A DNA stretch of 63,715 nucleotides from Gammaproteobacteria bacterium (GCA_029882995.1 JAOUJV010000004.1:1-63715); one strand, 5' to 3'; positions 12,910 through 55,768 are shown, counted from the stretch's first letter. Notes: generated from the sequence alone by a model not told the origin. Translations and numbers: made by a program.

Positions 12910-13002
12910 TCTGTAATCATTGCCCTTCAGGGCTTCTGCTTTCACTAAAAGACCAGAATTTTAAAGCACTTGGGGGGAAAATGGCAGGTATTTTCTTGTC
13001 AT

Positions 13003-13030
13003 AAAAAACGGCGACCGAAGTCGCCGTTTT
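13003..13030 (-). terminator. rho-independent terminator after the first PEP-CTERM paralog
   Basis: Stem CGGCGAC / GTCGCCG with loop CGAA, flanked by an A-run and a T-run (aaaaaacggcgaccgaagtcgccgtttt). Confidence 0.7.
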
Positions 13031-13052: not shown

Positions 13053-13877
13053 TTATTTACGTCTAGCCAATCCTGCCAAACCAATCAAACCAGAACCAAA
13101 CAACCAGATCGCCGCCGGAACAGGCACAGGTGAAGCTGAAAGGATTTGAGTATTCCATGCCTCTACATAAGGGATGCCTTGAAAATCAGCCCATTCCGCC
13201 CCAAAAATATTAATAGAAACATATGTGGCAGTATAATCATCTATACCATCACCATTAATGTCCCCCACATTGGCAACTGGTGTTCCATTCATGTTGCCAA
13301 CAGAAAGATGAGAAACATTTCCTGTTGTAAAATTACCTGAAAAAGGCAGGTTTGCAGGAAAGGTGGGGATTCCTCCTAGACTGGCAAAACGTGTTGCCAA
13401 ATTTAAAGTTGTCTCAGAAGCATTTGTTGTACCATTGGAACCTGAAAAATCTGTCATGTCTTGACAAAGATCACCCATAATAGTGCCGCCAATACAATCT
13501 ACCTGGAAACTGGTAAAACCAATCTCTCCCCCAGCAACTGTCATACCAATTTCTCCAGAATTGCCATTGCCGTAATTGGCAGGTTCTATAATATGATCCC
13601 CTACAAGATCAAAAGCCCCGCCAGATAACAAATTAATATCATCCCACAACCCAAGAGACTGACCAACGCTTGGCAATTCATATGAAAATGAGGTGTTGTA
13701 TGCGCCATCGATCCCCACATCTGATATTAATGGATAACCCAAAAATTCAGGCGTGCTATTGATTGTCAAAATATAACTTCCATCCGCAATCGCGACCGCC
13801 GATGCTGTTGAAACCCAACCTGACGCTGAAAATGCAGTCAGCACACCCAAACCTAATAATGTTTTATTAAATTTCAT
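13053..13877 (-). CDS. secreted PEP-CTERM (VPLPA-like variant) sorting-domain protein, paralog A
   Basis: 274 aa; signal peptide ...STASA|VAIADGSY. Shared family motifs GEIGMTVAGGEIGFTSFQVD, FTTG, GTPVANVGDINGDGIDDYTATYVS. C-terminus SPVPVPAAIWLFGSGLIGLAGLARRK. SD GGGAGGGGAG. Confidence 0.85.
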   Translation of the reverse strand: MKFNKTLLGLGVLTAFSASGWVSTASAVAIADGSYILTINSTPEFLGYPLISDVGIDGAYNTSFSYELPSVGQSLGLWDDINLLSGGAFDLVGDHIIEPANYGNGNSGEIGMTVAGGEIGFTSFQVDCIGGTIMGDLCQDMTDFSGSNGTTNASETTLNLATRFASLGGIPTFPANLPFSGNFTTGNVSHLSVGNMNGTPVANVGDINGDGIDDYTATYVSINIFGAEWADFQGIPYVEAWNTQILSASPVPVPAAIWLFGSGLIGLAGLARRK

Positions 13878-13938
13878 AACTCCCCTCCCTTTATATTTAT
13901 ACTTGATTACTACTAAAATAAATTTCCGTTTGTATTTT

Positions 13939-14739
13939 TTAATTTTTATATCGCGCTAGCCCCAACAAACCCACAAGACCAGAACCGAATAACCAGACTG
14001 CGGCTGGAACAGGAACGGGTGAAGCTGAAAGAATTTGGGTATTCCAAACCTCAATAATTGGAGTCCCGTTAAAATCTCCCCATTCAGGAGTAAATGCACC
14101 CGCTGATACAAATGTTGCGGTGTAATCATCTATTCCATCGCCATCCAAATCTCCTGCATTGGCAACGGGCGTTCCGTTAACAGTACCCGCAATGTTTGTC
14201 GATGAGCCGGTTGTGAATGTATTAAACCCCCACTGTTTATCTGTAAACACAGGAAAAACAGACATCGCAGCCTGACGCCCACTGAAATCAAGGCTGGTCT
14301 CACCAAAGGTTGTTGTACCACTTAGTATGGAAGCATCGTATGCATACTGGGCAATAGTTCCGCAACATGTATTCCCAATGGAATCCACCTGGAAACTGGT
14401 CACGCTAATGTTGCCACCTGACACAACTATCCCGATCTCTCCTGCATTACCATTGCCAGCAATAGTCGTATGACCAAACACATCGGAAAGTGCTTCATCA
14501 AACATCCCATTAGACGTCCCTGTTGCTGGAAGAAGACCAACAGTTAAAGAGGTGTTCCACGCTCCATCAGTGCCGACATCTGCCACTGTTGGATAGCCTA
14601 AATCAGAAAGGTCCGGTGAAATATTAATTACCAATGTATAACTTCCATCTGCAATCGCTACTGCAGATGCTGTTGTCATTGCCCCAGATAATGCAAGCAA
14701 ACCCGCAACACCTAAAACCACTCCGGTTTTCTTTTCCAT
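13939..14739 (-). CDS. secreted PEP-CTERM (VPLPA-like variant) sorting-domain protein, paralog B
   Basis: Same architecture as A (ASAVAIADGSY, GEIGIVVSGGNISVTSFQVD, GTPVANAGDLDGDGIDDYTATFVS, SPVPVPAAVWLFGSGLVGLLGLARYKN). ATG 14739 (MEKKTGVV...) is preferred over GTG 14754 by comparison with the paralog N-termini. Confidence 0.85.
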   Translation of the reverse strand: MEKKTGVVLGVAGLLALSGAMTTASAVAIADGSYTLVINISPDLSDLGYPTVADVGTDGAWNTSLTVGLLPATGTSNGMFDEALSDVFGHTTIAGNGNAGEIGIVVSGGNISVTSFQVDSIGNTCCGTIAQYAYDASILSGTTTFGETSLDFSGRQAAMSVFPVFTDKQWGFNTFTTGSSTNIAGTVNGTPVANAGDLDGDGIDDYTATFVSAGAFTPEWGDFNGTPIIEVWNTQILSASPVPVPAAVWLFGSGLVGLLGLARYKN

Positions 14740-14880
14740 CTTCCTGCTCCCCACATTAGTTTATTATCAATAACTGATAACACATTTAGCCCAAGTCCAA
14801 ATCAGTCTATCAAAGATTTATTCATATATGTATGTTTTTTTGATTGCGCAAAATAAAAAAACAGTCATAGCTGTTTTCTA

Positions 14881-14930
14881 AACAACAAAAAGCCCTTCAA
14901 GGAACAGTGTTCTCTATTCCTTGAAGGGCT
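14881..14930 (-). terminator. rho-independent terminator after paralog C
   Basis: 14-bp stem AGCCCTTCAAGGAA / TTCCTTGAAGGGCT, followed on the minus strand by TTTTGTTGTT. Confidence 0.75.
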
Positions 14931-15001
14931 TTATTTTTTATTAGCTTTTTATTTCAAAATCAGAATGGCTATATTCGATACCTGGCTAACAATAATTATT
15001 T

Positions 15002-15778
15002 TTATGCTTTGCGGCGACGAGCAATACCGGCAAGACCTAACAGACCTGAACCAAACAACCATAAAGCGGCTGGTACGGGTACCGCAGATACAATCTCAAC
15101 ATTCCATACTTCAAAATATGGCATAGGATAAACATCCCCCCACTCAGGTCCAAACTCACCTGCCGACTTGAATACTGCCGTATAATCATCGACACCATCA
15201 CCATTAATATCACCAACATTAGCCACCGCTACACCTGTATCCGAACCAATTAAATTGCTCGCGGTAGTACCGGTAGTAAAAGGTGCATAATCCCATTTTT
15301 TATCTGTTATTCCATATGCACTCATTGATGCTACACGACCAGTTAAATCAAAACTTGTAGTGGATGCATTAGTAATCCCGCTCATCATGCTTGTATCATT
15401 CGTGCTCTGAGAAAAATCACCTCCAGCTGTATCTAAAACAGGATCTACCTGAAAACTGGTAAATGAGATGGTACCACCTGAAATAGTGAGACCAAGTTTG
15501 CCTGCCACACCATCACATGCGATATCTCCCGGCAAACAAATACCAACTTCCGCTTCTGTAAAATAATTTGAACCTGAACTTCCTGGAAGCGCATTAAAGG
15601 CAATCTGGCTATCGTTACTCGTATAATCAGGTAAAACCGGCAAACCTGGTGGCAGCACATAAGGCAGAATGTTCATTTGATAATTGCCATCAGCAATGGC
15701 CACTGCTGATGCGGTTGTTGTGATTGCCGAACTTGTAAATATGGAAAGTGCTATTAATCCTGTAATCCAGTTTTTCAT
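15002..15778 (-). CDS. secreted PEP-CTERM (VPLPA-like variant) sorting-domain protein, paralog C
   Basis: 258 aa; ASAVAIADGNY, GKLGLTISGGTISFTSFQVD, VAVANVGDINGDGVDDYTAVFKS, VPVPAALWLFGSGLLGLAGIARRRKA. SD AAGGAGAG. Confidence 0.85.
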   Translation of the reverse strand: MKNWITGLIALSIFTSSAITTTASAVAIADGNYQMNILPYVLPPGLPVLPDYTSNDSQIAFNALPGSSGSNYFTEAEVGICLPGDIACDGVAGKLGLTISGGTISFTSFQVDPVLDTAGGDFSQSTNDTSMMSGITNASTTSFDLTGRVASMSAYGITDKKWDYAPFTTGTTASNLIGSDTGVAVANVGDINGDGVDDYTAVFKSAGEFGPEWGDVYPMPYFEVWNVEIVSAVPVPAALWLFGSGLLGLAGIARRRKA

Positions 15779-15852
15779 TTAAAGCTCTCCTTATATTGCA
15801 TCCAAAACCTATAATTCATCAAGCCCAAACCAGAATTATTATTTTTATTTAT

Positions 15853-15890
15853 TATAAAAAACGGGGATACACATTAATGCGCATCCCCGT
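15853..15890 (-). terminator. rho-independent terminator after paralog D
   Basis: Stem ACGGGGAT / ATCCCCGT, followed on the minus strand by TTTTTT. Confidence 0.7.
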
Positions 15891-15951
15891 TCTATCCGTT
15901 TTAGTCTTTTAGTTCCACAAGAATCCTTACTTGTGATTGACTACATATTAC

Positions 15952-16746
15952 TTACGCTTTGCGGCGACGAGCAATACCAGCCAGACCTACTAGACCAGAA
16001 CCGAACAACCATACTGCAGCTGGAACTGGAACAGGTGAAGACATGATGTCAACTTTCAGTACTTCAACATAAGCAGCACCGTTGAAATCACCCCATTCTG
16101 CACCAACATTACCGCCTGAAACGAAAGTAGCAGTGTAGTCATCAAGGCCATCACCATTTACGTCACCAACGTTTGCAACAGCTGTACCGTTGTTAGTTAC
16201 ACCATTAGCAGTTGAAGCACCTGTGGTGAAGGTTCCATAATCCCAAGGATTATCAAACATTGGCATACCGCTGATTGCGCCCAAAAGACCAGTCAGAGTG
16301 AATGATGTTTCACCTGCAGTTGATGTACCAGACATCGCGCTTGTATCGCTTGCATACTTAATGAAAGTACCACCCGCTGTTGAATAAATAGCATCAAACT
16401 GTACGCTTGTGAATGCAATATCACCCATAGCATCAACAGTCATAGCAAGAGAGCCGGCCATACCGTCACCACCAATACCTACATTTATGCCTTGAACAGT
16501 AGTAGGACCAGTATCAGTCATGCGCTGTGAAACACCAGTTGTAGGTGTTGGGTCAAATGTGAAAGTTGAGTTCCAGTTACCATCTGTACCAGCATCAGCA
16601 ATAGTACAAAGACCAAGGTAACAAGGTGTTTCTTGAATTTCCATTGAGTAACTACCTGTAGCGATTTGTACCGCTGAAGCAGATGTTGCAAGCGCAGCAG
16701 CACCGAATGCTGTTGCCAAAGATAAAGCTATTTTAGACTTCTTCAT
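15952..16746 (-). CDS. secreted PEP-CTERM (VPLPA-like variant) sorting-domain protein, paralog D
   Basis: 264 aa; SASAVQIATGSY, GSLAMTVDAMGDIAFTSVQFD, GTAVANVGDVNGDGLDDYTATFVS, SPVPVPAAVWLFGSGLVGLAGIARRRKA. Strong SD GGAGGAG. Confidence 0.85.
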   Translation of the reverse strand: MKKSKIALSLATAFGAAALATSASAVQIATGSYSMEIQETPCYLGLCTIADAGTDGNWNSTFTFDPTPTTGVSQRMTDTGPTTVQGINVGIGGDGMAGSLAMTVDAMGDIAFTSVQFDAIYSTAGGTFIKYASDTSAMSGTSTAGETSFTLTGLLGAISGMPMFDNPWDYGTFTTGASTANGVTNNGTAVANVGDVNGDGLDDYTATFVSGGNVGAEWGDFNGAAYVEVLKVDIMSSPVPVPAAVWLFGSGLVGLAGIARRRKA

Positions 16747-16884
16747 ATATCTTACTCCTCCAAAATTTAACTTCTTTCATTATTTCTTGAATATATTCAA
16801 GAATCATCCAGGTTCATTTAGATACCCTAAACTCCCCCTAACTAAATGATCCACTAATCCTCATGAATTAGTACTTAACCTTTT

Positions 16885-16900
16885 AGCAAGACTCGTGCCA
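16885..16900 (-). promoter_or_regulatory. sigma-54 (-24/-12) promoter for paralog D
   Basis: The minus strand reads TGGCACGAGTCTTGCT, an exact TGGCAC-N5-TTGCW. It lies about 140 nt upstream of ATG 16746. Confidence 0.75.
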
Positions 16901-16972: not shown

Positions 16973-16990
16973 GTGTAAAATTTATTGACA
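16973..16990 (-). promoter_or_regulatory. candidate enhancer-binding-protein site (TGT-N11-ACA dyad), proximal copy
   Basis: Plus strand GTGTAAAATTTATTGACA (minus strand TGTCAATAAATTTTACAC). It starts 73 nt beyond the -24 element. Three related copies occur in the window. Confidence 0.5.
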
Positions 16991-17156: not shown

Positions 17157-17174
17157 GTGTAAAAATTTCTGACA
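17157..17174 (-). promoter_or_regulatory. candidate enhancer-binding-protein site (TGT-N11-ACA dyad), distal copy
   Basis: GTGTAAAAATTTCTGACA matches the 16973 copy at 15 of 18 positions. Its 5' flank (gttacaaaaggattgg) also resembles the flank of the 23847 copy. Confidence 0.45.
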
Positions 17175-17602: not shown

Positions 17603-19072
17603 ATGAGATCCACTCATCGTTCTTATCTGACAAACATATTATTGTCATTCGTTTTGCTATTTACTGCATCTGTCCATGCATCAAATGGTATGTTTCAAAT
17701 AGGCTTTGGCCATAAATCCAAATCTATGGGTGGCACAGCTGTTGCTCAAGCTCTGGATTCACTCGCTGCTGGTGCTAACCCAGCCGCCATGGTGCATGTT
17801 GGCAATCGTTATGATATCGGTGTCGAACTTTTCGTGCCTAAACGATCGGTTTATATGAAAGATGCGGCACCTGACGCTTTGACCACTGGCCCAAATAATG
17901 ATCCAAGAAATGGAACATGGGATAGCCGTCATAATTTATTTCCAGTCCCTAACATGGGTTTTAATGTGATGTTGAGTGACAGACTGTCATTTGGTGCGTC
18001 AGTCATTGGGGCCGGGATGGGCACAGCATACGGTTACAACTTTTTTGACGTAGGTCCTGCGGAAGGCGATGAGAATAGTACTGTTGGTATAGAGCTATTT
18101 CAAGTGCAAATATTACCCACATTTGCATATAAATATAATGATACCCATTCTTTCGGCATTTCACCGATTTTTGGAATGCAACGATTCTCTGCTCGCGGAC
18201 TGGGTGAGTTTGGAGATTTCTTTTTCTCGGAAACGCCTAGCCAAATGACTGATCGCGGTCAAGACTGGGCGTTTGGTTATGGTATTAAATTAGGCTGGCA
18301 AGGTCGATTTCTTGAAAATGATGCTTTGACTCTTGGAGCCACTGTAAATTCTGAAGTCTACATGGAAAAATTCAGAAAATACCAAGGGCTTATTGCAAAT
18401 GGGGGTGAATTAAATATCCCTGCACATTATGCTATTGGTATTGCTTATAATGTAAATAAAAAATTCATGGCCACAATGGATGTACAAAGGGTTTTATATA
18501 GCACTGTCCCTGCCATTAGCAACCCACACCCTGGTAATAATTGTTGGGGGGGCACTGGTATTGGTGCCACATGTACCTTGGTGGCCCCAACAGGCGAGGA
18601 CAGAATAGGTGGAGAAACAGGTTTAGGTTTTGGCTGGACCGATCAAACCATTTATAAGTTGGGATTTGCCTTCAAGGCAAATAGCAAGTGGACATATCGT
18701 TTCGGACTTAATTATGGAGAATCGCCTATTCCGGACCATCAAATCCTGTTTAATACCATTGCTCCTGCTGTAGTTGAAAAACACGTTACATTAGGCTTTA
18801 CCTATACCCCTGACAAGGATACCGAGATTAACTTTATGTTTATGCATGCTTTAGAAAACCGACAGGAATGCCGGGCTACTGACAGGGATGATATCCCCGC
18901 TGATGTAGTGGCAGGCGGATTGGGCGCTGAGCTTGCTTATCTTCAAGCTAATCCAGGATGTAGAACTTATTTCACGCCTAACTCGTTTACCAATGGAGAA
19001 TCAGGTTCTGTCGCCGCCGAGATGGTTCAATATTCAATGGGTATAAGCTACTCAAAGAAATTTAATTGGTAA
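17603..19072 (+). CDS. outer-membrane beta-barrel protein, FadL/TodX (long-chain fatty acid / hydrophobic compound transport) family
   Basis: 489 aa; signal peptide ...SVHA|SNG. N-terminal hatch-like motif GMFQIGFGHKSKSMGGTAVAQALDSLAAGANPAAM resembles the FadL N-terminus. Alternating beta-strand pattern; aromatic C-terminal residue (KKFNW). Confidence 0.6.
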   Translation: MRSTHRSYLTNILLSFVLLFTASVHASNGMFQIGFGHKSKSMGGTAVAQALDSLAAGANPAAMVHVGNRYDIGVELFVPKRSVYMKDAAPDALTTGPNNDPRNGTWDSRHNLFPVPNMGFNVMLSDRLSFGASVIGAGMGTAYGYNFFDVGPAEGDENSTVGIELFQVQILPTFAYKYNDTHSFGISPIFGMQRFSARGLGEFGDFFFSETPSQMTDRGQDWAFGYGIKLGWQGRFLENDALTLGATVNSEVYMEKFRKYQGLIANGGELNIPAHYAIGIAYNVNKKFMATMDVQRVLYSTVPAISNPHPGNNCWGGTGIGATCTLVAPTGEDRIGGETGLGFGWTDQTIYKLGFAFKANSKWTYRFGLNYGESPIPDHQILFNTIAPAVVEKHVTLGFTYTPDKDTEINFMFMHALENRQECRATDRDDIPADVVAGGLGAELAYLQANPGCRTYFTPNSFTNGESGSVAAEMVQYSMGISYSKKFNW

Positions 19073-19304: not shown

Positions 19305-21950
19305 CTACTGCTGAAGCTCAGACAAAGCCTCTTTAGCATCCTTTATATTGGCAAACTTTCCGATTTCTATCGCTTTTTTCAGGTGTTTCTTTGCTAGTTC
19401 TGATTTTCCCAACTTGAAATAGGACATGCCTAAATGATAGCGAAATATGGCAACATCCGGCATCTTGCCAACGACAGGTGCTAATATTTTAACTGCCTCC
19501 TCATATTTACCCAGTTTATAGTTAACCCATCCAAACGTATCAATAAACATTGGATCTTTTGAAGAACCTAATCTTGAAGCCAACTTGAATGCGCGCTTTA
19601 AATTCTCATCGTCAACCCTGTGTTCAACCAACAATGATGCCAGATTATTTGTTGCCAGCACATTAGATGGCGCAACCTTCAGGATTTGCTCGTAATACCC
19701 TATTGCATTATCAAACTCCTGTTGCCCCTCATGTAGCATGGCCAAACGGTGCAAAAGACGAACATCTTTGGGTAAATGCTTGAGAGCCAGTTTATATGTG
19801 CTTATAGCGCCTTCAATATTGTTCTGTGCAATGCGCACATTTACCAGCTGTATATAGGCATCTGCAGTTTTGGGGGTCAATTTAACCTGCTTATCAAACT
19901 CCATCTCTGCTTTATTCAGTTTGTTTTGATTCTGGTAAAGCACTCCTAATAAACTGTGAGCGGTCGGGTGATTGGGGGACTCTTTAATAATGCCCTCAAG
20001 CTTCGCTTGAGCACCTGATATATCTTTGGCAGCAATATATGCACTTACTAATTGCGCAAGCAAATTTATGTTTTCTGATCGCGTGTAGGCTTCATTAAAA
20101 GCATCTATGGCAGATGTGTAATCCTTTTTTGCCAAAAAAACCATCCCCAAAAATCGATGGGCCATTTTTGTCTCAGGGTTGTTTTCTATTATCTTTCTTA
20201 ATATGGCCTCAGCTTTAGGTGTATCTCCCGTTTTGAGTTGCAGATCTATAAGCTCAGCCAATAAATCTTTAGACTCGGGGTTGCGTTTAAAAGCCTCTTC
20301 AAATTCTGACTTTGCTCTGTTTTGTTTTTTTTGTGCTTTATAAATACGCCCCATTCTAAAATAAGGATCACTACTTTTCGGATCAACTTTTTTTAGCCTA
20401 TTCAAAACCTGTATTGCTTGCGGAATTTTGTTATCCCTTGCCAGCATGCTTGACTTCATCGTCAAAGCATCAATATTATCAGGCTCAATTTTCAAAGCCT
20501 TATCAATATATTTGTATATATTTTCTTTTTCCCTTGTGACAATAAAATAGCGTGCCAGCCGCAATAATGCATCAACATTTTTTGGTGTAAGATCTGCAAC
20601 CTTTATGAGGTTTTCATAAGCCAACTTCATCTCGTCTTCTGCAAGATATGCTTCCGCGATCAAATTTAACACATCAATTCTTTCTGGCTGCGTTTTTAAT
20701 ATTGTGCGAAAAGCTGCAATTGCTTCTGTATTATTTTTATTCTGCAATGCCATTTTACCTTTTAAAGTCAGCGCGTCATGATCGTTGGGGCTTTCATCAA
20801 GAACTTCGGATATAAGGCGGCTAGCTTCTTGGGCTTGAGAACGAGCCATATATATCCTGGCTGCCTCAATGCGCGCCTTGAGTCCGGCAGGACTAAACTT
20901 CCACTTCTCAATAACACCCTCAAAGAGGTCTAGAGCATTATCTTCACGGTTTTCTCTAGCATATACATTTGCCAATACAAATATTAATTTCGGCTCTTCT
21001 GGCAACTTTGAGATTGATAACTTTAATCTTTTAATTCCTTCTTCTCCCCCTTTATGAGTACCAATATAATCAGCCAAAACAAGATGCCTCTCTACATCTA
21101 GCGGTTCTGCTACGACCGCATCCTGCAACACCTTTATCGCCTCATCTTTTTTATCTATTTGAGTATAATGCTTTGATAAAATCACTCGGTAATCAAACAC
21201 ATCCGACTTTATCTCTATTACTTTTTCCAATGTTTTAATTGCGTTATCCATTTGATTATAACGCTGATAAAAATGCACTAACGCCAAACGAATTGAAATG
21301 TTTTCAGGGGATAATAAAACTCCTTTTTTCAATACCTGCTCTTCTTTTTTAACCAGTTTTTGCTGAGCATAAATCTCTGAAAGCAAAATCACGGCGTTTT
21401 CATTACCCCCTTTTGAAAGAACTTCCTCCAGAATTTTAATTGCTTCTTTTGTTTTTTCATTACGAAAATTGAAGGCAGCCTTCAGAACTAGTCCACCAAC
21501 ATAACTTGGATCTCGTTGAAGAATTTCATCCACCTGTTTTTGAACTTCTTTCAGGGTTTCTTTTGCCCTTTCAGCATCTCCGGCTTTTTTTTGCTCATCT
21601 GCAACTAAATAAAAATACCAGCCCAGGCTTTCACGCGTTTTCAGCAACCCTGGATCAAGTTCTAATGCGCTATTGTAACTGCCGAGCGCCTTTCCCCAAT
21701 CCCGCTTATACTCAGCAATCTCACCCAGATAGTGATATGCCTCTGCAGTTTTGGGATCAATTTGTAATACATTTTTGAATTCAATTTGTGCTTTATCATA
21801 GTTTTCTTCGGCAAGGTACTGTTTCCCTTTTCCAAGATACTCCTTAACGGTCTTTTCCGTATTACCACAGGCGGAAACAACCAGCATTATTACTAAAACG
21901 AAGGATGTTCTCATTAATAAAGATTTAACTAAAACCATATTTTTGCCCAC
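19305..21950 (-). CDS. prsT: PEP-CTERM system TPR-repeat lipoprotein (PrsT-like), copy 1
   Basis: 881 aa, TPR repeats throughout, lipoprotein signal with lipobox VVSAC. The size and architecture match the PrsT family as I recall it (about 900 aa). Start uncertain: GTG 21950, ATG 21938 or ATG 21914. Confidence 0.7.
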   Translation of the reverse strand: MGKNMVLVKSLLMRTSFVLVIMLVVSACGNTEKTVKEYLGKGKQYLAEENYDKAQIEFKNVLQIDPKTAEAYHYLGEIAEYKRDWGKALGSYNSALELDPGLLKTRESLGWYFYLVADEQKKAGDAERAKETLKEVQKQVDEILQRDPSYVGGLVLKAAFNFRNEKTKEAIKILEEVLSKGGNENAVILLSEIYAQQKLVKKEEQVLKKGVLLSPENISIRLALVHFYQRYNQMDNAIKTLEKVIEIKSDVFDYRVILSKHYTQIDKKDEAIKVLQDAVVAEPLDVERHLVLADYIGTHKGGEEGIKRLKLSISKLPEEPKLIFVLANVYARENREDNALDLFEGVIEKWKFSPAGLKARIEAARIYMARSQAQEASRLISEVLDESPNDHDALTLKGKMALQNKNNTEAIAAFRTILKTQPERIDVLNLIAEAYLAEDEMKLAYENLIKVADLTPKNVDALLRLARYFIVTREKENIYKYIDKALKIEPDNIDALTMKSSMLARDNKIPQAIQVLNRLKKVDPKSSDPYFRMGRIYKAQKKQNRAKSEFEEAFKRNPESKDLLAELIDLQLKTGDTPKAEAILRKIIENNPETKMAHRFLGMVFLAKKDYTSAIDAFNEAYTRSENINLLAQLVSAYIAAKDISGAQAKLEGIIKESPNHPTAHSLLGVLYQNQNKLNKAEMEFDKQVKLTPKTADAYIQLVNVRIAQNNIEGAISTYKLALKHLPKDVRLLHRLAMLHEGQQEFDNAIGYYEQILKVAPSNVLATNNLASLLVEHRVDDENLKRAFKLASRLGSSKDPMFIDTFGWVNYKLGKYEEAVKILAPVVGKMPDVAIFRYHLGMSYFKLGKSELAKKHLKKAIEIGKFANIKDAKEALSELQQ

Positions 21951-22304: not shown

Positions 22305-23570
22305 TTAGGCGGCTTTTCTTCTACCAGCCCACACAAGGCCTATCAAGCCCGAACCAAATAACCATACAGCTGCAGGCACAGGAACTGGAACTGGAGCAAG
22401 GCTAGTATACTGAACTTCATGCTCAGAAAAGTCTTCAGCTGTGAAGGTAACTATACGCTCACCATCCGCACGCATCATGAATCCTTTTCCACCGAAGCTG
22501 TTAACCTTCCAGACTGCACCTGGGGTGCCTTCTGGAACGACAGTTGCCAACCATTTCTTGGTTATGGGGTCACGAACCGGGTTACCAAATTCATCATAGG
22601 AATCGGCAGATAACCATACACCCAGAGGGATAACGTCTGCGCCTAAAAACGACACCCTATTATTATATGCATGATCCAATGCCGGGTTATCATTAACAAT
22701 GACTTCACCATTTTCATCCAGTGGATTGGCTAAAGGGTTTGTGTTATTGATAGTAGCATGACCTTCAAAGGTGTCTCTTGTTAATCCATTCAGCTCAGTT
22801 TCCATGTAGTAACTTCCATAACTTCGCATAATAAGACCAGGAACAATCTGAGAGACGGGTTCAGCTGTACTTGCATCCCCATCGACATAATAAACATCAA
22901 AAACAACATCGAATGTTATTTGCCCTGCCATGATTGCTGTACCACTCGCATCATCAGCTAAAACTGAGCCACACCAGCCTTTACCATCAGAAATACCGTA
23001 AGGGCTGAAATTAATCGAAGTGTCGTAGACACCATCTTGCGGAAAAACTGAGGGAGGAAGCCCTGCATTAGCTCCATCACCATCATAAGAAAACATATCA
23101 ACGAAGCCGAAATCCATACCAGACATGGGTACATGGTAATTACCGGCTTTATCAATCTGCATATTGTAAAAATGGCTCTCTGGCATGTCATACCCCCAAT
23201 CACCAAACTTGATGATGCCATCCTGAGAGGCATTTCTATACAAATCAGGGGAGCCAAACTCGACCGATAAGTCGGTTCGTAGATCCTTGGTTAATCCATC
23301 TGCCGGCAACGTATGTACATTTTGCTCTTGCCCAATTCGGGTTGCATCAAATCCAGTGATACCAGTCACTGTGGAAGTCACTGCAAAATCATTAGCTCCA
23401 ACCCCGTTTGGGCCTTTGTAACCCCAATCGTTAAATCTCAGGAAACTATTATTGACCGTTCCATAAGTCGCTTCATCATAATATTTATAATGATCTGTAG
23501 GTGTCGCAGCAAAAGCTGGCTGAGATATGGCACCTAGTAGTGCTACGGTAATTATTTTTCGATGATTCAT
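22305..23570 (-). CDS. secreted PEP-CTERM (VPLPA-like variant) sorting-domain protein, unrelated to paralogs A-D
   Basis: Start at ATG 23570 (MNHRKIITVALLGAISQPAFA|ATP, SD GGGGAG). C-terminus APVPVPVPAAVWLFGSGLIGLVWAGRRKAA. No domain recognised in the ~380-aa mature part. Confidence 0.8.
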   Translation of the reverse strand: MNHRKIITVALLGAISQPAFAATPTDHYKYYDEATYGTVNNSFLRFNDWGYKGPNGVGANDFAVTSTVTGITGFDATRIGQEQNVHTLPADGLTKDLRTDLSVEFGSPDLYRNASQDGIIKFGDWGYDMPESHFYNMQIDKAGNYHVPMSGMDFGFVDMFSYDGDGANAGLPPSVFPQDGVYDTSINFSPYGISDGKGWCGSVLADDASGTAIMAGQITFDVVFDVYYVDGDASTAEPVSQIVPGLIMRSYGSYYMETELNGLTRDTFEGHATINNTNPLANPLDENGEVIVNDNPALDHAYNNRVSFLGADVIPLGVWLSADSYDEFGNPVRDPITKKWLATVVPEGTPGAVWKVNSFGGKGFMMRADGERIVTFTAEDFSEHEVQYTSLAPVPVPVPAAVWLFGSGLIGLVWAGRRKAA

Positions 23571-23679
23571 TACTACTCCCCTCAAATCCTCAAAATTAAA
23601 CAACTAGTTTGCAGATAATTATTTTTGTCTGCATGCTTAACAAGTAATAGTATTTCCCCATATATTCTCTAAAGATATA

Positions 23680-23695
23680 AGCAATATTTATACCA
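23680..23695 (-). promoter_or_regulatory. sigma-54 (-24/-12) promoter for the 421-aa PEP-CTERM gene
   Basis: The minus strand reads TGGTATAAATATTGCT. GG and GC are at the exact consensus spacing (TGGYAY-N5-TTGCT), about 110 nt upstream of ATG 23570. Confidence 0.6.
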
Positions 23696-23846: not shown

Positions 23847-23864
23847 GTGTAAAATTTACTGACA
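23847..23864 (-). promoter_or_regulatory. candidate enhancer-binding-protein site (TGT-N11-ACA dyad), distal copy
   Basis: GTGTAAAATTTACTGACA matches the 16973 copy at 17 of 18 positions. Confidence 0.5.
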
Positions 23865-23952: not shown

Positions 23953-26325
23953 TTATTTCAAATCATTATAAGCTTTAATCGCTTCATCTTTCTCACTATA
24001 TTTCTGCTCAGACTCTACCGCCAACTTCAGATGTTTTTTAGCCAAGTCTTTCTCGCCCATTTTTTTATATATAGCACCGATATGATATTGGAATATCGGA
24101 ATATCCGGAGACTTCTCGATAACTTTTTTCATATATGAAAGCGCATCATCATTATTCCCCGCTTTATAATAAACCCAGGCCAATGTATCCAGATAAACTG
24201 CTTCTTTGCTGTCTTTTAATTTTGTTGCCAAAGACAAAGCTTCATTAATATCAGTATCAGACAATAGAACTGCAAGGTTATTAACAATAGTTAACATATC
24301 TGGATTTGACTCGAGTATTTCTCTATAGGTTTGTATAGCATTTTTTGTTTTTCCATTTTTCTCATATAACGTAGCAAGCTGGAATTTTAATGTTTTCTTA
24401 TTGGTTACTTTTTCTATCCCATTTGCCAGTGCCTTTTCAGCCATATCTGACTGTCCTGTTAACACATATATTTGTGACAAGCGGGAATGCAAAATCTCTA
24501 TATCATCAGATATAGACAATGCCTTATTAATCGTTTTCTTTGCTGCATCATAATTTTTTTCCACTATATATACTTGCGACAATAATTCTAAAGGCACAGG
24601 GTTATCTGGAAACTGACTAATTACTTTATTAATCCTGGCAACTGCTTTCCCTGGCTCTTTGTTTGATACATAGATTCTTACTATTTGCTTAAGGAAAGTT
24701 AGTTTGTCTTTTGTTTTATCGTAGCCCAGTTCAAACTCAGCGATAGCTTTTTCATATTTCTTCTGCCCTAAATAAAGCCCAGCAAGCTGTTCATACCCGG
24801 TAGGTTTTTCCGGGTAATACTCCTTGATTTTTTCCAATAAGGACTCCACCTCTCCAAACTCCTGTTTTGACGCCAGAATCCTGGCCTTGAGCAACAACGC
24901 ATCAAGCTCCTTTGAATCAAGTTCAAGCGCTATATCTATTTCTTTTAAACCTTTCTCAACATCCTTTTCAGACAAATAGCTTTGTGCCAACAACACATGT
25001 GCCTTGGCATTTTTGGGGTTCAAGTCAACCGCTCTTTGAATGGTTTCCTTTACGAGTTGAAAATCTTTATTTATTGCATGCGCCTGCGCCAATAACACAT
25101 ACACATCAATTGCTCCAGGCTGTTCTTTTAAATAAGTCCTTAATGAATTGACAGCTGTCACAGCATCATTTTTGCTTAACGCGATTTTTCCTTTCGTTAA
25201 GTGTGCGCCGAGATCCTGCGGACTCTCTGATAATATTTCGCCAATATATTTTTCTGCCTTATCAATATCCCCTTTGCCCATATGAATGACTGCAAGCAAA
25301 TTCATTGCAGCAAGACCATCTGGTGAATACTTATCCCCTTCCAAGATGGATGAATAAGTATTGATCGCCTTATCATTTTGCCCGACTTTCTCATAAAGCC
25401 TGCCTAAAACAAGCCTCAACTTATCTCTGTATTTATGTGTTTCAATTGAGCCAATAAGAAACTCTTCCGCCTCCTTTACACTCTTTTTTGTGGCTAGAAA
25501 TTCTGCATAAGCATAGTATCTTTCTGTTTCATCAGGTTCTGCATCAATAGCATCACGTAATATCCTTACCGCCTTATCCAAACTATTCGTGCTGGCATAA
25601 AATTTTGCCACATTAACAATGTATTGATATTCTCCTTCCTTGATATTCATAATCTCAAGGAGAGTTTTTTCAGCATCATCCAATTCATTTCTGGAAATGT
25701 ATATTTTTGCCAACAATCCATGCAATTTAATATTTTTAGGATTGGCTTTTGCAGCTGATTTTAAAACATTTATAGCCTCGCCACTATTTTCAAGCCTTAA
25801 ATATATGCTGGCAAGCATTGCTGCTGCCTCATCAAACTCGGGCTGTTCATTAATAATATCTCTGAGTAAGTTTTCTGCTTCTTTATCCTTTTTTTGCCTG
25901 CTGAATATAGTAGCCTCAAGAAACCTTACTTTATAATGCTCCCTGTTTTTCTCTTTTATCTGTGCCAATATTTCTTTTGCTTTATCCTCTTTCTGCTGCA
26001 GAAGATAAAAACCACCTAATTTAACTGAAGCATCAATGTTTTCAGGATCAAGTTCAACTGCTTTGGAATAATTGCCAAATGCCTTACTCCAATTCTGCCC
26101 CCTTTCTTCAATGACCCCTACGAGATAATATGCCTTTGAGAATTTAGGATCTATTTGAAGAACATTTTTCAACTCGATTTTTGCCTTTTCATAATTCTCC
26201 TCCTCCATGTACTGCTCAGCTTTCTCATAATACTTTTGTTTTCGCTCTTCCTTTCCGCCACATGATGCAAGCATTGCAATCAATACAATTAATAAAAAAC
26301 GACCCATAATATTTTGTACACACAT
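23953..26325 (-). CDS. prsT: PEP-CTERM system TPR-repeat lipoprotein (PrsT-like), copy 2
   Basis: 790 aa, TPR repeats, lipobox MLASC. The N- and C-terminal segments are clearly paralogous to copy 1 (KNVLQIDPK..., ...LAKKHLK...). SD AGGAGA 7 nt upstream of ATG 26325. Confidence 0.7.
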   Translation of the reverse strand: MCVQNIMGRFLLIVLIAMLASCGGKEERKQKYYEKAEQYMEEENYEKAKIELKNVLQIDPKFSKAYYLVGVIEERGQNWSKAFGNYSKAVELDPENIDASVKLGGFYLLQQKEDKAKEILAQIKEKNREHYKVRFLEATIFSRQKKDKEAENLLRDIINEQPEFDEAAAMLASIYLRLENSGEAINVLKSAAKANPKNIKLHGLLAKIYISRNELDDAEKTLLEIMNIKEGEYQYIVNVAKFYASTNSLDKAVRILRDAIDAEPDETERYYAYAEFLATKKSVKEAEEFLIGSIETHKYRDKLRLVLGRLYEKVGQNDKAINTYSSILEGDKYSPDGLAAMNLLAVIHMGKGDIDKAEKYIGEILSESPQDLGAHLTKGKIALSKNDAVTAVNSLRTYLKEQPGAIDVYVLLAQAHAINKDFQLVKETIQRAVDLNPKNAKAHVLLAQSYLSEKDVEKGLKEIDIALELDSKELDALLLKARILASKQEFGEVESLLEKIKEYYPEKPTGYEQLAGLYLGQKKYEKAIAEFELGYDKTKDKLTFLKQIVRIYVSNKEPGKAVARINKVISQFPDNPVPLELLSQVYIVEKNYDAAKKTINKALSISDDIEILHSRLSQIYVLTGQSDMAEKALANGIEKVTNKKTLKFQLATLYEKNGKTKNAIQTYREILESNPDMLTIVNNLAVLLSDTDINEALSLATKLKDSKEAVYLDTLAWVYYKAGNNDDALSYMKKVIEKSPDIPIFQYHIGAIYKKMGEKDLAKKHLKLAVESEQKYSEKDEAIKAYNDLK

Positions 26326-55042: not shown

Positions 55043-55768
55043 TTGAATATTGCCCTGCTCGAAGATGACATACATGTTGGAGAGCTGATACAGCTTTGGC
55101 TCAAGGAAGCAGGCCATGACTGCACACACTATACCGAAGGTGAAAAATTCATCAGTGAAGCCCATGATCAAGCCTTTGATATGGTCATTCTCGACTGGAT
55201 GTTGCCTGATATAAACGGCGATAAGGTCCTTGAGTGGATAAGAAGTAACATCAAATGGAGTATTCCTGTCCTGTTTGTCACCATGCGTGATAGCGAAAGA
55301 GACATCGTCTATGCACTGGAACACGGTGCGGATGATTATATGACAAAGCCGGTCAAGCAAATGGAAATGCTGGCACGCATTAATGCCTTATCCAGAAGAT
55401 CAGACCTGCATCCGGTCGGACACAATAAAATCGAGATCGGTAGCTATTCCATCGATATAACATCAAGAAATGTGACGCATAATGACAAACCAGTTCAGTT
55501 GACCCAGAAAGAATTTGAGCTGATTGCTTTCCTGTTTAAAAACATCAACACTGTGATGTCCAGAAAATATATATTGGAAAGTGTATGGGGTCGGTCAGGT
55601 GAGCTTAATACCCGAACCGTTGATACTCACATTAGCCGTATTCGTAACAAGCTTGAATTGGGGAAAGAAAAGGACTGGCGCCTAAGCGCAATTTATCACC
55701 ATGGATACAGACTTGAGTTTCTTGGTGAAGAATTAAAACAGGTTGAGAAAAATCCTTCGCTTCTATGA
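55043..55768 (+). CDS. OmpR/PhoB-family response regulator (receiver + winged-helix)
   Basis: 241 aa; LEDD acidic pocket, MVILDWMLPD phospho-acceptor, YMTKP. C-terminal winged helix (LTQKEFELIAFL...RTVDTHISRIRNKL). TTG start. Confidence 0.85.
   Translation: MNIALLEDDIHVGELIQLWLKEAGHDCTHYTEGEKFISEAHDQAFDMVILDWMLPDINGDKVLEWIRSNIKWSIPVLFVTMRDSERDIVYALEHGADDYMTKPVKQMEMLARINALSRRSDLHPVGHNKIEIGSYSIDITSRNVTHNDKPVQLTQKEFELIAFLFKNINTVMSRKYILESVWGRSGELNTRTVDTHISRIRNKLELGKEKDWRLSAIYHHGYRLEFLGEELKQVEKNPSLL

What the first reader, a model, noticed from the sequence alone, without database searches (positions are those of the whole stretch)
13053..16746. Tandem array of four diverged paralogs of an uncharacterised secreted protein family carrying a VPLPA-like PEP-CTERM signal
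Four consecutive genes (258-274 aa) share four elements: a signal peptide cleaved before V(A/Q)IA(D/T)G(S/N)Y, a central block G(E/K/S)(I/L)(G/A)(M/I/L)(T/V)V..G.I.(F/V)TS(F/V)Q(V/F)D, an FTTG motif, and an FG-GAP/EF-hand-like Ca-binding loop GD(I/L/V)(N/D)GDG(I/V/L)DDYTA. The sorting tail is (S/A)VPVPAAxWLFGSGLxGLxGxARRK. Between these islands they are strongly diverged, which looks like diversifying paralogs rather than a recent duplication. Three are individually terminated, and D has its own sigma-54 promoter and the strongest SD. I recognise no characterised domain in the mature part. As abundant exosortase substrates they are candidates for matrix or surface-layer structural proteins.
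Basis: partly seen in the sequence, partly recalled or inferred. Interest (0 to 1): 0.7.

Follow-up and report, generated by a model that had tools for sequence, protein, structure and literature searches.

The report
Exosortase-sorted matrix protein gene array
Four neighbouring genes in an uncultured sediment gammaproteobacterium encode old, diverged copies of a small, previously undescribed secreted beta-protein that carries the address tag of the exosortase XrtD; it is a new cargo family for a known but poorly understood sorting system linked to slime and biofilm formation.

Summary
Four minus-strand ORFs (A 13053-13877, B 13939-14739, C 15002-15778, D 15952-16746) are homologous (BLASTP 2e-55 and 4e-56). 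Each has a signal peptide, a very acidic ~22 kDa mature domain and a VPVPAA-TM-basic tail. TIGR03370 VPLPA-CTERM passes its cutoff in A, C and D; B is degenerate.

The cognate exosortase XrtD (590 bits, cutoff 400) lies 11 kb away in an EPS locus with two PrsT genes. D has the full "PEP-CTERM box": an enhancer motif ending in TTTACA, a 73-nt spacer, then TGGCAC-N5-TTGCT. This is conserved in four other loci. Terminators follow D, C and A.

The mature domain matches nothing in Pfam, NCBIfam or PDB. AlphaFold gives pLDDT 96.5, but the best Foldseek TM is below 0.4. A weak floc_PepA hit vanished once the signal peptide and tail were removed.

The family is small: 161 clusters among 1.84 billion representatives. 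Copy number at this site is 1, 3 or 4, and each paralog groups with orthologs from other organisms, so the duplications are old. Longer members put the domain at the tip of Ig/cadherin stalks.

It is best read as an EPS-associated binding or structural protein. This is a new member of a known kind, of moderate interest.

The parts
15952..16746 (-). Gene D (264 aa): first and ancestral-type copy. Signal peptide, 213-aa acidic all-beta domain, VPVPAA-TM-RRRKA tail.
   Evidence: ORF. TIGR03370 28.8 bits, cutoff 25.35. AlphaFold pLDDT 96.5, pTM 0.92 for the mature domain. Nc 38.4, the lowest of 16 genes. Orthologs P0002 81% and L005 68%.
15002..15778 (-). Gene C (258 aa): paralog with its own terminator.
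   Evidence: TIGR03370 28.5 bits. Groups with P0013 at 52%.
13939..14739 (-). Gene B (266 aa from the ATG; alternative GTG start at 14754 gives 271 aa). Tail has a degenerate basic cluster, ARYKN. No terminator before A.
   Evidence: TIGR03370 16.1 bits, below cutoff. Groups with L006_3 at 56%.
13053..13877 (-). Gene A (274 aa): last copy, followed by a terminator and then gltX.
   Evidence: TIGR03370 29.3 bits. Groups with L006_2 and P0020 at 61-62%.
16885..16900 (-). Sigma-54 -24/-12 promoter of D (TGGCACGAGTCTTGCT), which is motif 2 of the PEP-CTERM box.
   Evidence: Exact consensus match. Conserved upstream of the first family gene in L006, L007 and L008 (exact) and in L005 and L091 (1 mismatch).
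16974..16990 (-). Proximal enhancer site TGTCAATAAATTTTACA (motif 1 of the PEP-CTERM box; presumed PrsR-type activator site), 73 nt upstream of the -24 element.
   Evidence: The same motif lies 73-86 nt upstream in L005, L006, L008 and L091. It matches the description in PMC1569441, section 7.
17158..17174 (-). Distal second copy of motif 1 (TGTCAGAAATTTTTACA) in the D / Toluene_X intergenic region.
   Evidence: Only three full copies occur in the 63.7-kb window.
16754..16765 (-). Ribosome-binding region TTTTGGAGGAGT of D, invariant across four loci.
15854..15891 (-). Intrinsic terminator after D.
   Evidence: Hairpin -22.8 kcal/mol, z = -6.0, followed by a T-run.
14879..14932 (-). Intrinsic terminator after C.
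   Evidence: 19-bp stem. -31.2 kcal/mol, z = -8.1.
13001..13030 (-). Intrinsic terminator after A.
   Evidence: -18.0 kcal/mol, z = -6.0, T-run.
27996..29627 (-). XrtD, the VPLPA-CTERM-specific exosortase with a fused EpsI domain: the predicted processing enzyme.
   Evidence: TIGR04152 590.4 bits (cutoff 400). TIGR02914 EpsI 139 bits.
17603..19072 (+). Toluene_X/FadL-type outer-membrane protein, divergently transcribed from D. A conserved partner of the family.
   Evidence: Pfam PF03349 87.8 bits. Present beside family genes in L005, L006/L007, L089, L090 and L091. Orthologous at 75%, 61% and 37-38% identity.
19305..21950 (-). PrsT-type TPR protein (first of two).
   Evidence: TIGR02917 434 bits, cutoff 312.
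23953..26325 (-). PrsT-type TPR protein (second).
   Evidence: TIGR02917 336 bits, cutoff 312.
22305..23603 (-). Fifth VPLPA-tailed protein (432-aa ORF; likely start ATG 23570). An unrelated mature domain, in the same regulon.
   Evidence: Tail. PEP-CTERM Pfam 21.1 bits. No family-HMM hit. Own box: TGGTATAAATATTGCT at 23680-23695(-) and motif 1 at 23848-23864(-). Orthologs 72-73% identical in L005 and L006.

Best explanation
The four genes encode cargo proteins of the XrtD exosortase system.

Each product would be exported by Sec through a cleavable signal peptide ending in AxA. It would be held transiently in the inner membrane by its C-terminal VPVPAA / transmembrane helix / Arg-Lys tail. 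XrtD, encoded 11 kb away in the same exopolysaccharide locus, would then process it, releasing or transferring the ~22 kDa mature domain to the cell surface or the polysaccharide matrix.

The mature part is a compact, very acidic (pI ~4), all-beta domain of a previously undescribed family. Most likely it is a non-enzymatic binding or structural module that ties cells or proteins to the (possibly sulfated) exopolysaccharide. In these four copies a DxNxDGxxD calcium-type loop may help. This would be functionally analogous to the floc protein PepA, which converts soluble EPS into cell-bound EPS.

Gene D is the ancestral, probably highly expressed copy. It is switched on by a PrsR-type enhancer-binding protein and sigma-54. 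C and the B-A pair are older duplicates with divergent surfaces and unidentified promoters.

Shown: homology of the four genes, the tail, XrtD in cis, the promoter box and its conservation, the terminators, the confident fold model, the lack of known homologs, and the age of the duplications.
Inferred: export, cleavage by XrtD, calcium binding, matrix binding and abundance.
For: - Tail and sortase: TIGR03370 passes its cutoff in A, C and D and hits 62 of 62 family members at E <= 0.01. XrtD scores 590 bits against a cutoff of 400. Two PrsT genes, the XrtA-type ATPase, the tyrosine kinase, the chain-length determinant and a large glycosyltransferase/Wzx/Wzy cluster share the locus.
- Regulation: a complete PEP-CTERM box lies upstream of D, and it is conserved in L005, L006, L008 and L091. 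Only three motif-1 copies exist in the window, and all are upstream of VPLPA genes. This matches Haft et al. 2006 (PMC1569441). It also parallels the RpoN-dependent pepA, whose overexpression shifts EPS from soluble to bound (PMC9850573).
- Expression hints: D has the lowest Nc (38.4) of 16 genes and an invariant GGAGGAG SD.
- Extracytoplasmic character: pI ~4.05, only 1-5 Lys+Arg, and exactly two Cys per paralog at non-homologous positions.
- Binding-module role: longer family members place the domain N-terminal to Big_9/cadherin, PKD, MopE, dockerin/TSP3 and choice-of-anchor U modules with a different C-terminal anchor. Short and long forms coexist in single loci.
- Family context: it recurs with Poly_export, Wzz and kinase genes, and with TPR-sulfotransferase and TPR-GT41 genes. 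The window encodes a PAPS synthase.
- No enzyme-like homology at all.
Against: - No expression, localisation or processing data exist. The organism is uncultured: the best reference GlnS is only 74% identical.
- PrsK and PrsR are not in the window.
- No promoter was found for C or for B-A.
- B's tail is sub-threshold.
- The Ca-type loop is missing in about half of the family, and even in D's 68%-identical ortholog in L005. Calcium cannot be central to the family's function.
- The mature domain shows no sequence relationship to PepA, so the functional analogy rests on context only.
- The weak fold resemblance is to small ligand-binding barrels, and the conserved FadL-type neighbour is equally compatible with a small-molecule role.
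Confidence: 0.6

Rival explanations
1. The domain is a small-molecule or lipid-binding beta-barrel (lipocalin, YceI or avidin-like). It would work with the conserved FadL/Toluene_X outer-membrane channel, capturing hydrophobic compounds outside the cell and handing them over for uptake. The exosortase tail would only place it at the surface.
For: A Toluene_X gene lies beside family genes in 6 of 7 independent loci and co-diverges with them. The only Foldseek neighbours, all weak, are soluble 8-stranded barrels that bind ligands: BcnB/YceI-like, avidins, TbpB and PsbO.
Against: The Foldseek matches are at noise level (TM 0.25-0.39, RMSD ~10 A, E >= 0.0098). The family is equally tied to EPS export, sulfotransferase and GT41 genes and to the PEP-CTERM box. 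L008 has no Toluene_X within 10 kb. Fusion to Ig/cadherin stalks is typical of adhesins rather than substrate shuttles.
Confidence: 0.15
2. The paralogs are interchangeable surface-coat variants. They would be maintained for antigenic or receptor variation, for example to evade phages or grazers, with different copies expressed under different conditions.
For: Copy number at one syntenic site is 1, 3 or 4 in related organisms. Variability is concentrated in the N-terminal half while the framework and tail are conserved. The copies have separate terminators.
Against: The paralog lineages are old and each has orthologs elsewhere. That points to stable subfunctions, not rapid turnover. No invertible elements, recombination sites or repeats were seen. 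Only D has a recognisable regulated promoter.
Confidence: 0.1
3. The proteins are secreted enzymes acting on the exopolysaccharide (a lyase, hydrolase or modifying enzyme).
For: They are located in an EPS locus. Family-wide conserved residues include D53, R129 and E203 as well as aromatic residues.
Against: There is no similarity to any enzyme family by sequence or fold. The domain is small, and it is fused to adhesin stalks. The invariant positions are mostly Gly and Trp, which is typical of a structural core.
Confidence: 0.05
4. They are divergent members of the characterised floc protein family PepA (NF033554).
For: The full-length proteins hit floc_PepA weakly: D scores 26.9 bits over 8-263, C scores 32.6 bits, and 41 of 62 family members hit at E <= 0.01.
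Against: All scores are far below the cutoff of 80. With the signal peptide and tail removed, 0 of 36 members hit floc_PepA at E <= 1. The exhaustive search with a tail-free profile returned a closed set of only 161 clusters.
Confidence: 0.03

Closest known systems
PEP-CTERM/exosortase system cargo proteins with the PrsK-PrsR-sigma-54 'PEP-CTERM box' (Haft et al. 2006, PMC1569441)
   Same: Signal peptide plus a C-terminal motif/TM/basic tail. Little homology to known proteins. For D, a single-gene operon with a large upstream region (856 bp). An enhancer motif ending in TTTACA, followed ~70 nt later by a sigma-54 -24/-12 element. PrsT and EPS genes nearby. Paralogous expansion.
   Different: The tail is the VPLPA variant, served by XrtD rather than XrtA. 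The cargo domain is a discrete family of its own that also occurs with a different C-terminal anchor. Three of the four copies lack the box. PrsK and PrsR were not seen in the window.
PepA, the flocculation-associated PEP-CTERM protein of Aquincola and Zoogloea (NF033554; PMC9850573)
   Same: Similar size (~260 aa). Signal peptide and sorting tail. RpoN-dependent TGGCAC-type promoter with a leader. Terminator after the gene. Next to prsT. Proposed role of binding EPS to cells.
   Different: No detectable sequence similarity in the mature domain (0 of 36 members after tail removal). PepA has a canonical PEP tail and an XrtA system, in Betaproteobacteria. Here there are four copies and a conserved FadL-type neighbour.
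VPLPA-CTERM sorting domain proteins (TIGR03370) with exosortase XrtD (TIGR04152)
   Same: The tail passes the curated cutoff in three copies. XrtD with a fused EpsI domain is in the same locus.
   Different: TIGR03370 defines only the 25-residue tail. Nothing is known experimentally about any XrtD substrate: the literature search found one incidental mention.
'Choice-of-anchor' domains (Haft's NCBIfam classes), N-terminal cargo domains found with alternative C-terminal sorting signals
   Same: The domain occurs with a VPxPA tail in short proteins. In long proteins it occurs with a different '...RADWWLxxGFLAWLG..RRK' tail, together with choice-of-anchor U and tandem-95 repeats.
   Different: No curated NCBIfam model covers the domain.
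Integrin FG-GAP / DxDxDG-type calcium-binding loops
   Same: The loop GD(V/I/L)(N/D)GDG(I/L/V)DDY fits D-x-[DN]-x-D-G-x-x-D. In the model it connects two long beta-strands as a hairpin loop.
   Different: There is no FG-GAP domain or propeller (Pfam E = 0.75). It is a single loop, absent from about half the family.

Membership tests
VPLPA-CTERM sorting-domain proteins (TIGR03370), XrtD substrates | C-terminal VPLPA-like motif, then a hydrophobic helix, then a basic cluster at the extreme C-terminus, scoring above the curated cutoff. | tested here: met
   A 29.3, C 28.5 and D 28.8 bits against a cutoff of 25.35. B scores 16.1, below cutoff, with tail ARYKN.
VPLPA-CTERM sorting-domain proteins (TIGR03370), XrtD substrates | N-terminal Sec signal peptide. 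| tested here: inconclusive
   A basic n-region, a hydrophobic core and an ASA|V AxA site are visible in all four, and the N-terminus has low pLDDT. No signal-peptide predictor was available.
VPLPA-CTERM sorting-domain proteins (TIGR03370), XrtD substrates | Cognate XrtD exosortase encoded in the genome. | tested here: met
   TIGR04152 590.4 bits, cutoff 400, at 27996-29627(-).
VPLPA-CTERM sorting-domain proteins (TIGR03370), XrtD substrates | Actual cleavage or transfer of the tail by XrtD. | not testable with these tools
   Needs mass spectrometry of the mature C-terminus with and without XrtD.
PrsR/sigma-54 PEP-CTERM regulon (Haft 2006) | A 17-nt motif 1 ending in TTTACA, a spacer of ~63 +/- 11 nt (range 32-92), a sigma-54 -24/-12 motif 2, then an average of ~71 nt (range 23-221) to the start codon. 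| tested here: met
   For D: TGTCAATAAATTTTACA, 73 nt, TGGCACGAGTCTTGCT, then 138 nt to the ATG. The box is conserved in four other loci. It is not present upstream of C, B or A.
PrsR/sigma-54 PEP-CTERM regulon (Haft 2006) | PrsK, PrsR and PrsT encoded in the genome. | tested here: inconclusive
   Two PrsT genes pass the cutoff (434 and 336 bits against 312). No PrsK or PrsR is present in the 63.7-kb window. The rest of the genome is not available.
floc_PepA (NF033554) | Full-length match above the curated cutoff (80 bits), with similarity in the mature domain. | tested here: not met
   Best scores are 32.6 (C) and 26.9 (D) bits. 0 of 36 tail-free domains hit at E <= 1.
FG-GAP / integrin-type calcium-binding repeat | An FG-GAP repeat domain, not merely the DxDxDGxxD loop. 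| tested here: not met
   PF13517 scores 10.9 bits against a cutoff of 26.9, E = 0.75, in A only. The loop motif itself is present in all four. Calcium binding cannot be tested here.
Soluble 8-stranded beta-barrels (PsbO, avidin, YceI/BcnB, TbpB barrel) | Structural superposition at a TM-score of about 0.5 or more, or a significant Foldseek E-value. | tested here: not met
   With a model of pLDDT 96.5, the best TMq is 0.36-0.39, RMSD ~10 A and E >= 9.8e-3. The full-length model gave the same result. AFDB was not available.
Choice-of-anchor type cargo domain (concept) | The same N-terminal domain found with more than one class of C-terminal sorting signal. | tested here: met
   35 of 48 short members have the VPxPA tail. 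0 of 32 long members have it; many of those end in a distinct TM-plus-basic tail, and several carry choice_anch_U above its cutoff.

The most novel reading that the evidence does not exclude
The conserved, co-diverging pairing of this domain family with a dedicated FadL/Toluene_X-type outer-membrane protein could mark the missing outer-membrane step of an exosortase pathway. After XrtD processing, possibly onto a lipid or glycan acceptor, the cargo would be passed through or anchored by the laterally gated FadL-type barrel. The novel beta-domain would be the module that this device recognises. Short (anchor-only) and long (Ig-stalked) forms would use the same route.
Probability: 0.15. Interest if true: 0.8.

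Novelty: new member of a known kind. Interest (0 to 1): 0.45.

Why it matters
Exosortase/PEP-CTERM systems are widespread in sediment, soil and wastewater bacteria and are tied to biofilm and floc formation. Almost nothing is known about what their cargo proteins do or how they cross the outer membrane. No XrtD/VPLPA-CTERM substrate has been studied.

This locus offers a well-defined test case:
- a small cargo domain that is confidently modelled and has no solved analogue
- a complete regulatory box
- its sortase in cis
- natural copy-number variation (1, 3 or 4 copies)
- fused adhesin-like relatives
- a conserved outer-membrane partner

The gain is incremental. Haft et al. already noted that PEP-CTERM cargos are diverse and unlike known proteins, so one more such family is expected rather than surprising.

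Tried and rejected
- **PepA homology.** Weak near-full-length NCBIfam hits looked promising. They vanished completely when the signal peptide and tail were trimmed, so this was rejected. A real PepA sequence for profile-profile comparison could not be obtained: the supplement has none, and the 20-aa published peptide is below the minimum query length.
- **Known domains.** Pfam and NCBIfam on the mature parts found nothing. A PDB sequence-profile search gave 0 hits at E <= 10.
- **Fold search.** Two models were searched against the PDB and one against BFVD. Nothing scored E < 1e-3.
- **Riboswitches.** c-di-GMP riboswitches precede VPLPA/PEP-CTERM genes in Methylophaga (PMC12530212). Here, Rfam at gathering threshold found none in the whole window, and only sub-threshold noise in 12.9-17.7 kb. 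D's leader folds no better than shuffles would suggest (z = -1.9).
- **Reference genomes.**
  - A scan with the full family profile failed because it is too diverse.
  - A scan with the Ca-loop subfamily found no relative in 185,579 species genomes.
  - None of 80 glnS-anchored reference loci carries the domain.
- **Promoters for C and B-A.** No sigma-70-like or sigma-54-like site was found upstream on the correct strand.
- **Second exact sigma-54 consensus** at 17731-17746(+). It lies inside the Toluene_X ORF, has no motif 1, and is not conserved in L006, so it was judged a coding coincidence.
- **Literature.** Searches for XrtD and for FadL together with PEP-CTERM returned nothing.

Full report
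**1. The observation**

The window has four consecutive minus-strand ORFs at exactly the reported coordinates:
- A: 13053-13877, 274 aa
- B: 13939-14754 from a GTG, or more plausibly 13939-14739 from an ATG preceded by GGGGAG, 266 aa
- C: 15002-15778, 258 aa
- D: 15952-16746, 264 aa

They align end to end. Identity to A is 56, 44 and 47%, with 79 invariant columns. The most distant pairs give BLASTP E-values of 2e-55 (A-D) and 4e-56 (A-C), so homology is not in doubt.

Invariant columns cluster at four places:
- the first strand of the mature protein (AVxIAxGxY)
- the TSFQVD block and FTTG
- the GD(I/V/L)(N/D)GDGxDDYTA loop, where 0.73 of columns are invariant
- the tail, at 0.60-0.67

The N-terminal half of the mature domain is almost free to vary (0-0.13).

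The mature parts are 21-23 kDa and extremely acidic: pI about 4.05, 22-24 Asp+Glu against 1-5 Lys+Arg. Each contains exactly two cysteines, at positions that differ between paralogs. That fits independently acquired disulfides in an extracytoplasmic protein.

**2. Sorting signal and sortase**

NCBIfam TIGR03370 (VPLPA-CTERM) passes its curated cutoff of 25.35 bits in A (29.3), C (28.5) and D (28.8). B scores 16.1 because its basic cluster is degenerate (ARYKN).

The 543-aa protein at 27996-29627(-) scores 590 bits (cutoff 400) on TIGR04152, the VPLPA-CTERM-specific exosortase XrtD. It carries a fused EpsI domain.

The same locus holds:
- two PrsT-type TPR proteins (434 and 336 bits against a cutoff of 312)
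- a WecA-like initiating transferase
- a long block of glycosyltransferases, Wzx, Wzy, acetyl- and methyltransferases, and a radical-SAM/SPASM protein
- a bifunctional ATP-sulfurylase/APS kinase
- the XrtA-type ATPase, tyrosine kinase and chain-length determinant

A fifth VPLPA-tailed protein (22305-23603) with an unrelated mature region sits between the two PrsT genes.

**3. Transcription signals**

D is preceded by an 856-bp intergenic region. An exact TGGCAC-N5-TTGCT lies at 16885-16900(-), 138 nt before the ATG. Seventy-three nucleotides upstream of it is TGTCAATAAATTTTACA (16974-16990), and a second copy lies at 17158-17174.

This is the "PEP-CTERM box" of Haft et al. 2006. They describe a 17-nt motif 1 ending in TTTACA, a spacer of about 63 nt, a sigma-54 motif 2, and then an average of 71 nt to the start. 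They proposed it as the target of the PrsK/PrsR two-component system (PMC1569441, section 7).

The whole arrangement recurs upstream of the first family gene in four other, independent loci:
- L005: spacer 73 nt
- L006: spacer 86 nt
- L008: spacer 74 nt, although its protein is only ~37% identical
- L091: spacer 75 nt

An invariant TTTTGGAGGAGT ribosome-binding region accompanies the box in the window, L005, L006 and L008.

Only three full motif-1 copies occur in the 63.7-kb window. The third is upstream of the 432-aa VPLPA gene, which also has TGGTAT-N5-TTGCT at 23680-23695.

Strong hairpin plus T-run terminators follow D, C and A (z = -6.0, -8.1, -6.0). The 61-nt B-A spacer has no structure. 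The transcription units are therefore D, C and B-A. I could not find promoters for C or B-A.

D has the strongest codon bias of the 16 genes measured: Nc 38.4, against 42.9 (A), 44.3 (C), 51.8 (B) and 45-54 for the neighbours.

**4. The mature domain is a discrete, undescribed family**

Pfam and NCBIfam find nothing in it. A family profile finds no PDB sequence.

A word-indexed search returned about 70 full-length homologs. Nearly all are metagenomic, and the only names given are [quoted passage not shown].

An exhaustive HMMER search used a profile without signal peptide or tail against 1.84 billion cluster representatives. It found only 161 clusters at E <= 1e-3, of which 151 were at E <= 1e-10. 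The family is therefore small and sharply bounded.

AlphaFold models are very confident: pLDDT 90.4 and pTM 0.83 for the full length, and 96.5 and 0.92 for the mature domain. They show about 19 strands and one short helix.

Foldseek finds no solved structure at E < 1e-3. The best matches are small soluble meander barrels (PsbO, BcnB/YceI-like, avidins, the TbpB barrel) at TM 0.25-0.39 and about 10 A RMSD. Nothing was found in BFVD. AlphaFold DB was not available, so I cannot call the fold new, only without a solved close analogue.

**5. The PepA lead**

The full-length proteins hit NF033554 (floc_PepA) weakly. D scores 26.9 bits across almost the whole model, and 41 of 62 family members hit at E <= 0.01.

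PepA is the only functionally studied PEP-CTERM cargo. It is RpoN-dependent and lies next to prsT, and its overexpression converts soluble EPS into cell-bound EPS and restores flocculation (PMC9850573).

When I removed the signal peptide and tail, 0 of 36 members hit floc_PepA even at E <= 1. The resemblance is therefore carried by the ends of the protein. The family works in a PepA-like setting but is not a PepA family member at the sensitivity available here.

**6. Evolution of the array**

The exact D protein occurs on six contigs of the same population. At the same syntenic site (PrsT - 426/428/432-aa VPLPA protein - PrsT - Toluene_X - [family genes] - gltX), copy number varies:
- L005 has one copy, D-type.
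- L006 has three copies: D-type, A-type and B-type.
- The window has four copies.

In a neighbour-joining tree each window paralog groups with proteins from other organisms rather than with its neighbours:
- D with P0002 (81%) and L005 (68%)
- A with L006_2 and P0020 (61-62%)
- B with L006_3 (56%)
- C with P0013 (52%)

The duplications therefore predate these lineages. This is an old, differentially retained array, not a recent amplification.

The Ca-type loop is labile. It is absent from D's ortholog in L005 and from about half of all family representatives.

**7. Clues to function from relatives**

Thirty-two of 80 full-domain representatives are long proteins (>330 aa, up to 1374 aa). In nearly all of them the domain is N-terminal. 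In those scanned it is followed by Big_9/cadherin-like Ig repeats, PKD domains, MopE-type metal motifs, dockerin/TSP3-like calcium repeats, tandem-95 repeats and choice-of-anchor U.

None of the long forms has the VPxPA tail. Many end in a distinct "...RADWWLxxGFLAWLG..RRK" transmembrane-plus-basic tail, with at best a sub-threshold JDVT-CTERM resemblance.

A distal N-terminal domain on an Ig-like stalk with a C-terminal anchor is the architecture of adhesins. The short forms, including A-D, look like stalk-less versions. Short and long forms coexist in single loci (L090, L091).

Around members that are only 30-45% identical, the neighbourhood repeatedly contains:
- a Toluene_X/FadL-type outer-membrane protein
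- TPR-sulfotransferase fusions
- TPR-GT41 fusions
- Poly_export, Wzz and tyrosine-kinase genes

The Toluene_X proteins are orthologous and co-diverge with the family: 75, 61 and 37-38% identity to the window's copy.

**8. Most likely mechanism**

Shown:
- four homologous genes
- a sorting tail that matches the curated model
- the cognate sortase in cis
- a conserved enhancer plus sigma-54 box on D
- terminators
- a confidently folded beta-domain without known relatives
- old duplications
- adhesin-type fusions
- an EPS and sulfation context

Inferred:
- Sec export
- retention by the C-terminal helix
- XrtD cleavage or transfer at VPVPAA
- delivery to the surface or matrix
- a non-enzymatic binding or cross-linking role towards an acidic, possibly sulfated, polysaccharide, with Ca2+ possibly bridging in the loop-bearing copies
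- high, PrsR-gated expression of D

I put this at about 0.6 overall. The "XrtD cargo" part is about 0.85 and the "matrix-binding" part about 0.5.

The main rival (0.15) is a ligand-binding barrel working with the FadL-type channel. Surface variation (0.1), an enzyme (0.05) and PepA membership (0.03) follow.

**9. Novelty and verdict**

The system type is known and curated: PEP-CTERM/exosortase, the VPLPA/XrtD variant, and the PrsR/sigma-54 box.

What is new is the cargo domain family, its apparent lack of a solved structural analogue, its use with two anchor types, and its conserved pairing with a FadL-type outer-membrane protein. No paper in the searched library treats XrtD substrates.

This is a new member of a known kind. 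It is a solid, well-anchored candidate for studying exosortase cargo, but not a surprise to a specialist, since PEP-CTERM cargos are known to be diverse and unlike known proteins. Interest: 0.45.

The most novel reading not excluded is that the FadL-type partner provides the unknown outer-membrane step for exosortase cargo. I give that p about 0.15.

Noticed in passing
window 22305-23603(-), with 23680-23695(-) and 23848-23864(-): A fifth VPLPA-tailed protein (432-aa ORF; the likely true start is the ATG at 23570, MNHRK...) has an unrelated mature domain with no Pfam or NCBIfam hit. It has its own PEP-CTERM box: motif 1 TGTCAGTAAATTTTACA and TGGTATAAATATTGCT. It is 72-73% identical in L005 and L006, so it is better conserved than the array genes.
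   Followed up: partly
window 17603-19072(+); L005 7781-9229; L006 7833-9248; L090 3881-5500; L091 7736-9154; L089 1-746: A Toluene_X/FadL-type outer-membrane protein lies beside family genes in 6 of 7 independent loci, usually divergently transcribed. It co-diverges with them (75, 61 and 37-38% identity). No literature links FadL-type proteins to exosortase systems.
   Followed up: partly
family members P0048, P0049, P0148, P0172 (also P0022, P0034, P0036); for example L090 10001-10918: In several short members the central block 'SFxVDTIFxTAGGxFAQY' (profile positions ~85-106) is missing from its usual place. It appears instead at the extreme C-terminus of the domain, just before the VPVPAA tail. 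This looks like a strand-hairpin relocation or a circular-permutation-like variant.
   Followed up: partly
long family members, for example P0129, P0145, P0147, P0175; L090 1757-3799(-); L091 5092-7659(-): Proteins of 640-710 aa carry the domain N-terminally, followed by Big_9/cadherin and choice-of-anchor U modules. They end in a distinct tail, '...RADWWLxxGFLAWLG..RRK', that is not VPxPA. It shows only a sub-threshold JDVT-CTERM resemblance (16.4 bits against a cutoff of 27) and may be an undescribed sorting signal.
   Followed up: partly
L005 10001-10789: D's 68%-identical single-copy ortholog lacks the GDVNGDGLDDY calcium-type loop; it reads ...VAGNAVDGYTATF... instead. The loop is therefore gained or lost on short evolutionary timescales.
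   Followed up: yes
window 16784-16803: A perfect 20-nt palindrome, TTCTTGAATATATTCAAGAA, lies in D's 5' leader. It is unique in the window and conserved in L006, but absent from L005 and L008. It could be an operator or a leader hairpin. The leader as a whole does not fold significantly better than shuffled sequence (z = -1.9).
   Followed up: partly
window 17731-17746(+): A second exact TGGCAC-N5-TTGCT lies inside the Toluene_X ORF, where it encodes GTAVA. It has no motif 1 upstream and is not conserved in L006, so it was judged a coincidence of coding sequence.
   Followed up: yes
window 47067-48785(-); L006 5899-7689; L008 15898-16716; L089 7822-9473; L090 7821-9617; L091 11164-12843: The EPS cluster encodes a bifunctional ATP-sulfurylase/APS kinase (PAPS synthase). 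Related loci carry TPR-sulfotransferase and TPR-GT41 fusion proteins next to family genes. This hints at a sulfated polysaccharide or at modification of the cargo proteins themselves. No sulfotransferase was identified among the window ORFs I scanned.
   Followed up: partly
window 13053-16746 (proteins A-D): Each paralog has exactly two cysteines, but at non-homologous positions: D has CYLGLC, A has VDC...LCQ, B has a vicinal CC, and C has C...C around GDIAC. This suggests independently evolved disulfides.
   Followed up: no
window 55043-57514: An OmpR-type response regulator (55043-55768, +) and a receiver-PP2C-type regulator (55763-57514, -) sit at the edge of the EPS export genes. A chemotaxis cluster (MCPs, CheB, CheD, CheR) follows. 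PrsK and PrsR themselves are not in the window.
   Followed up: no
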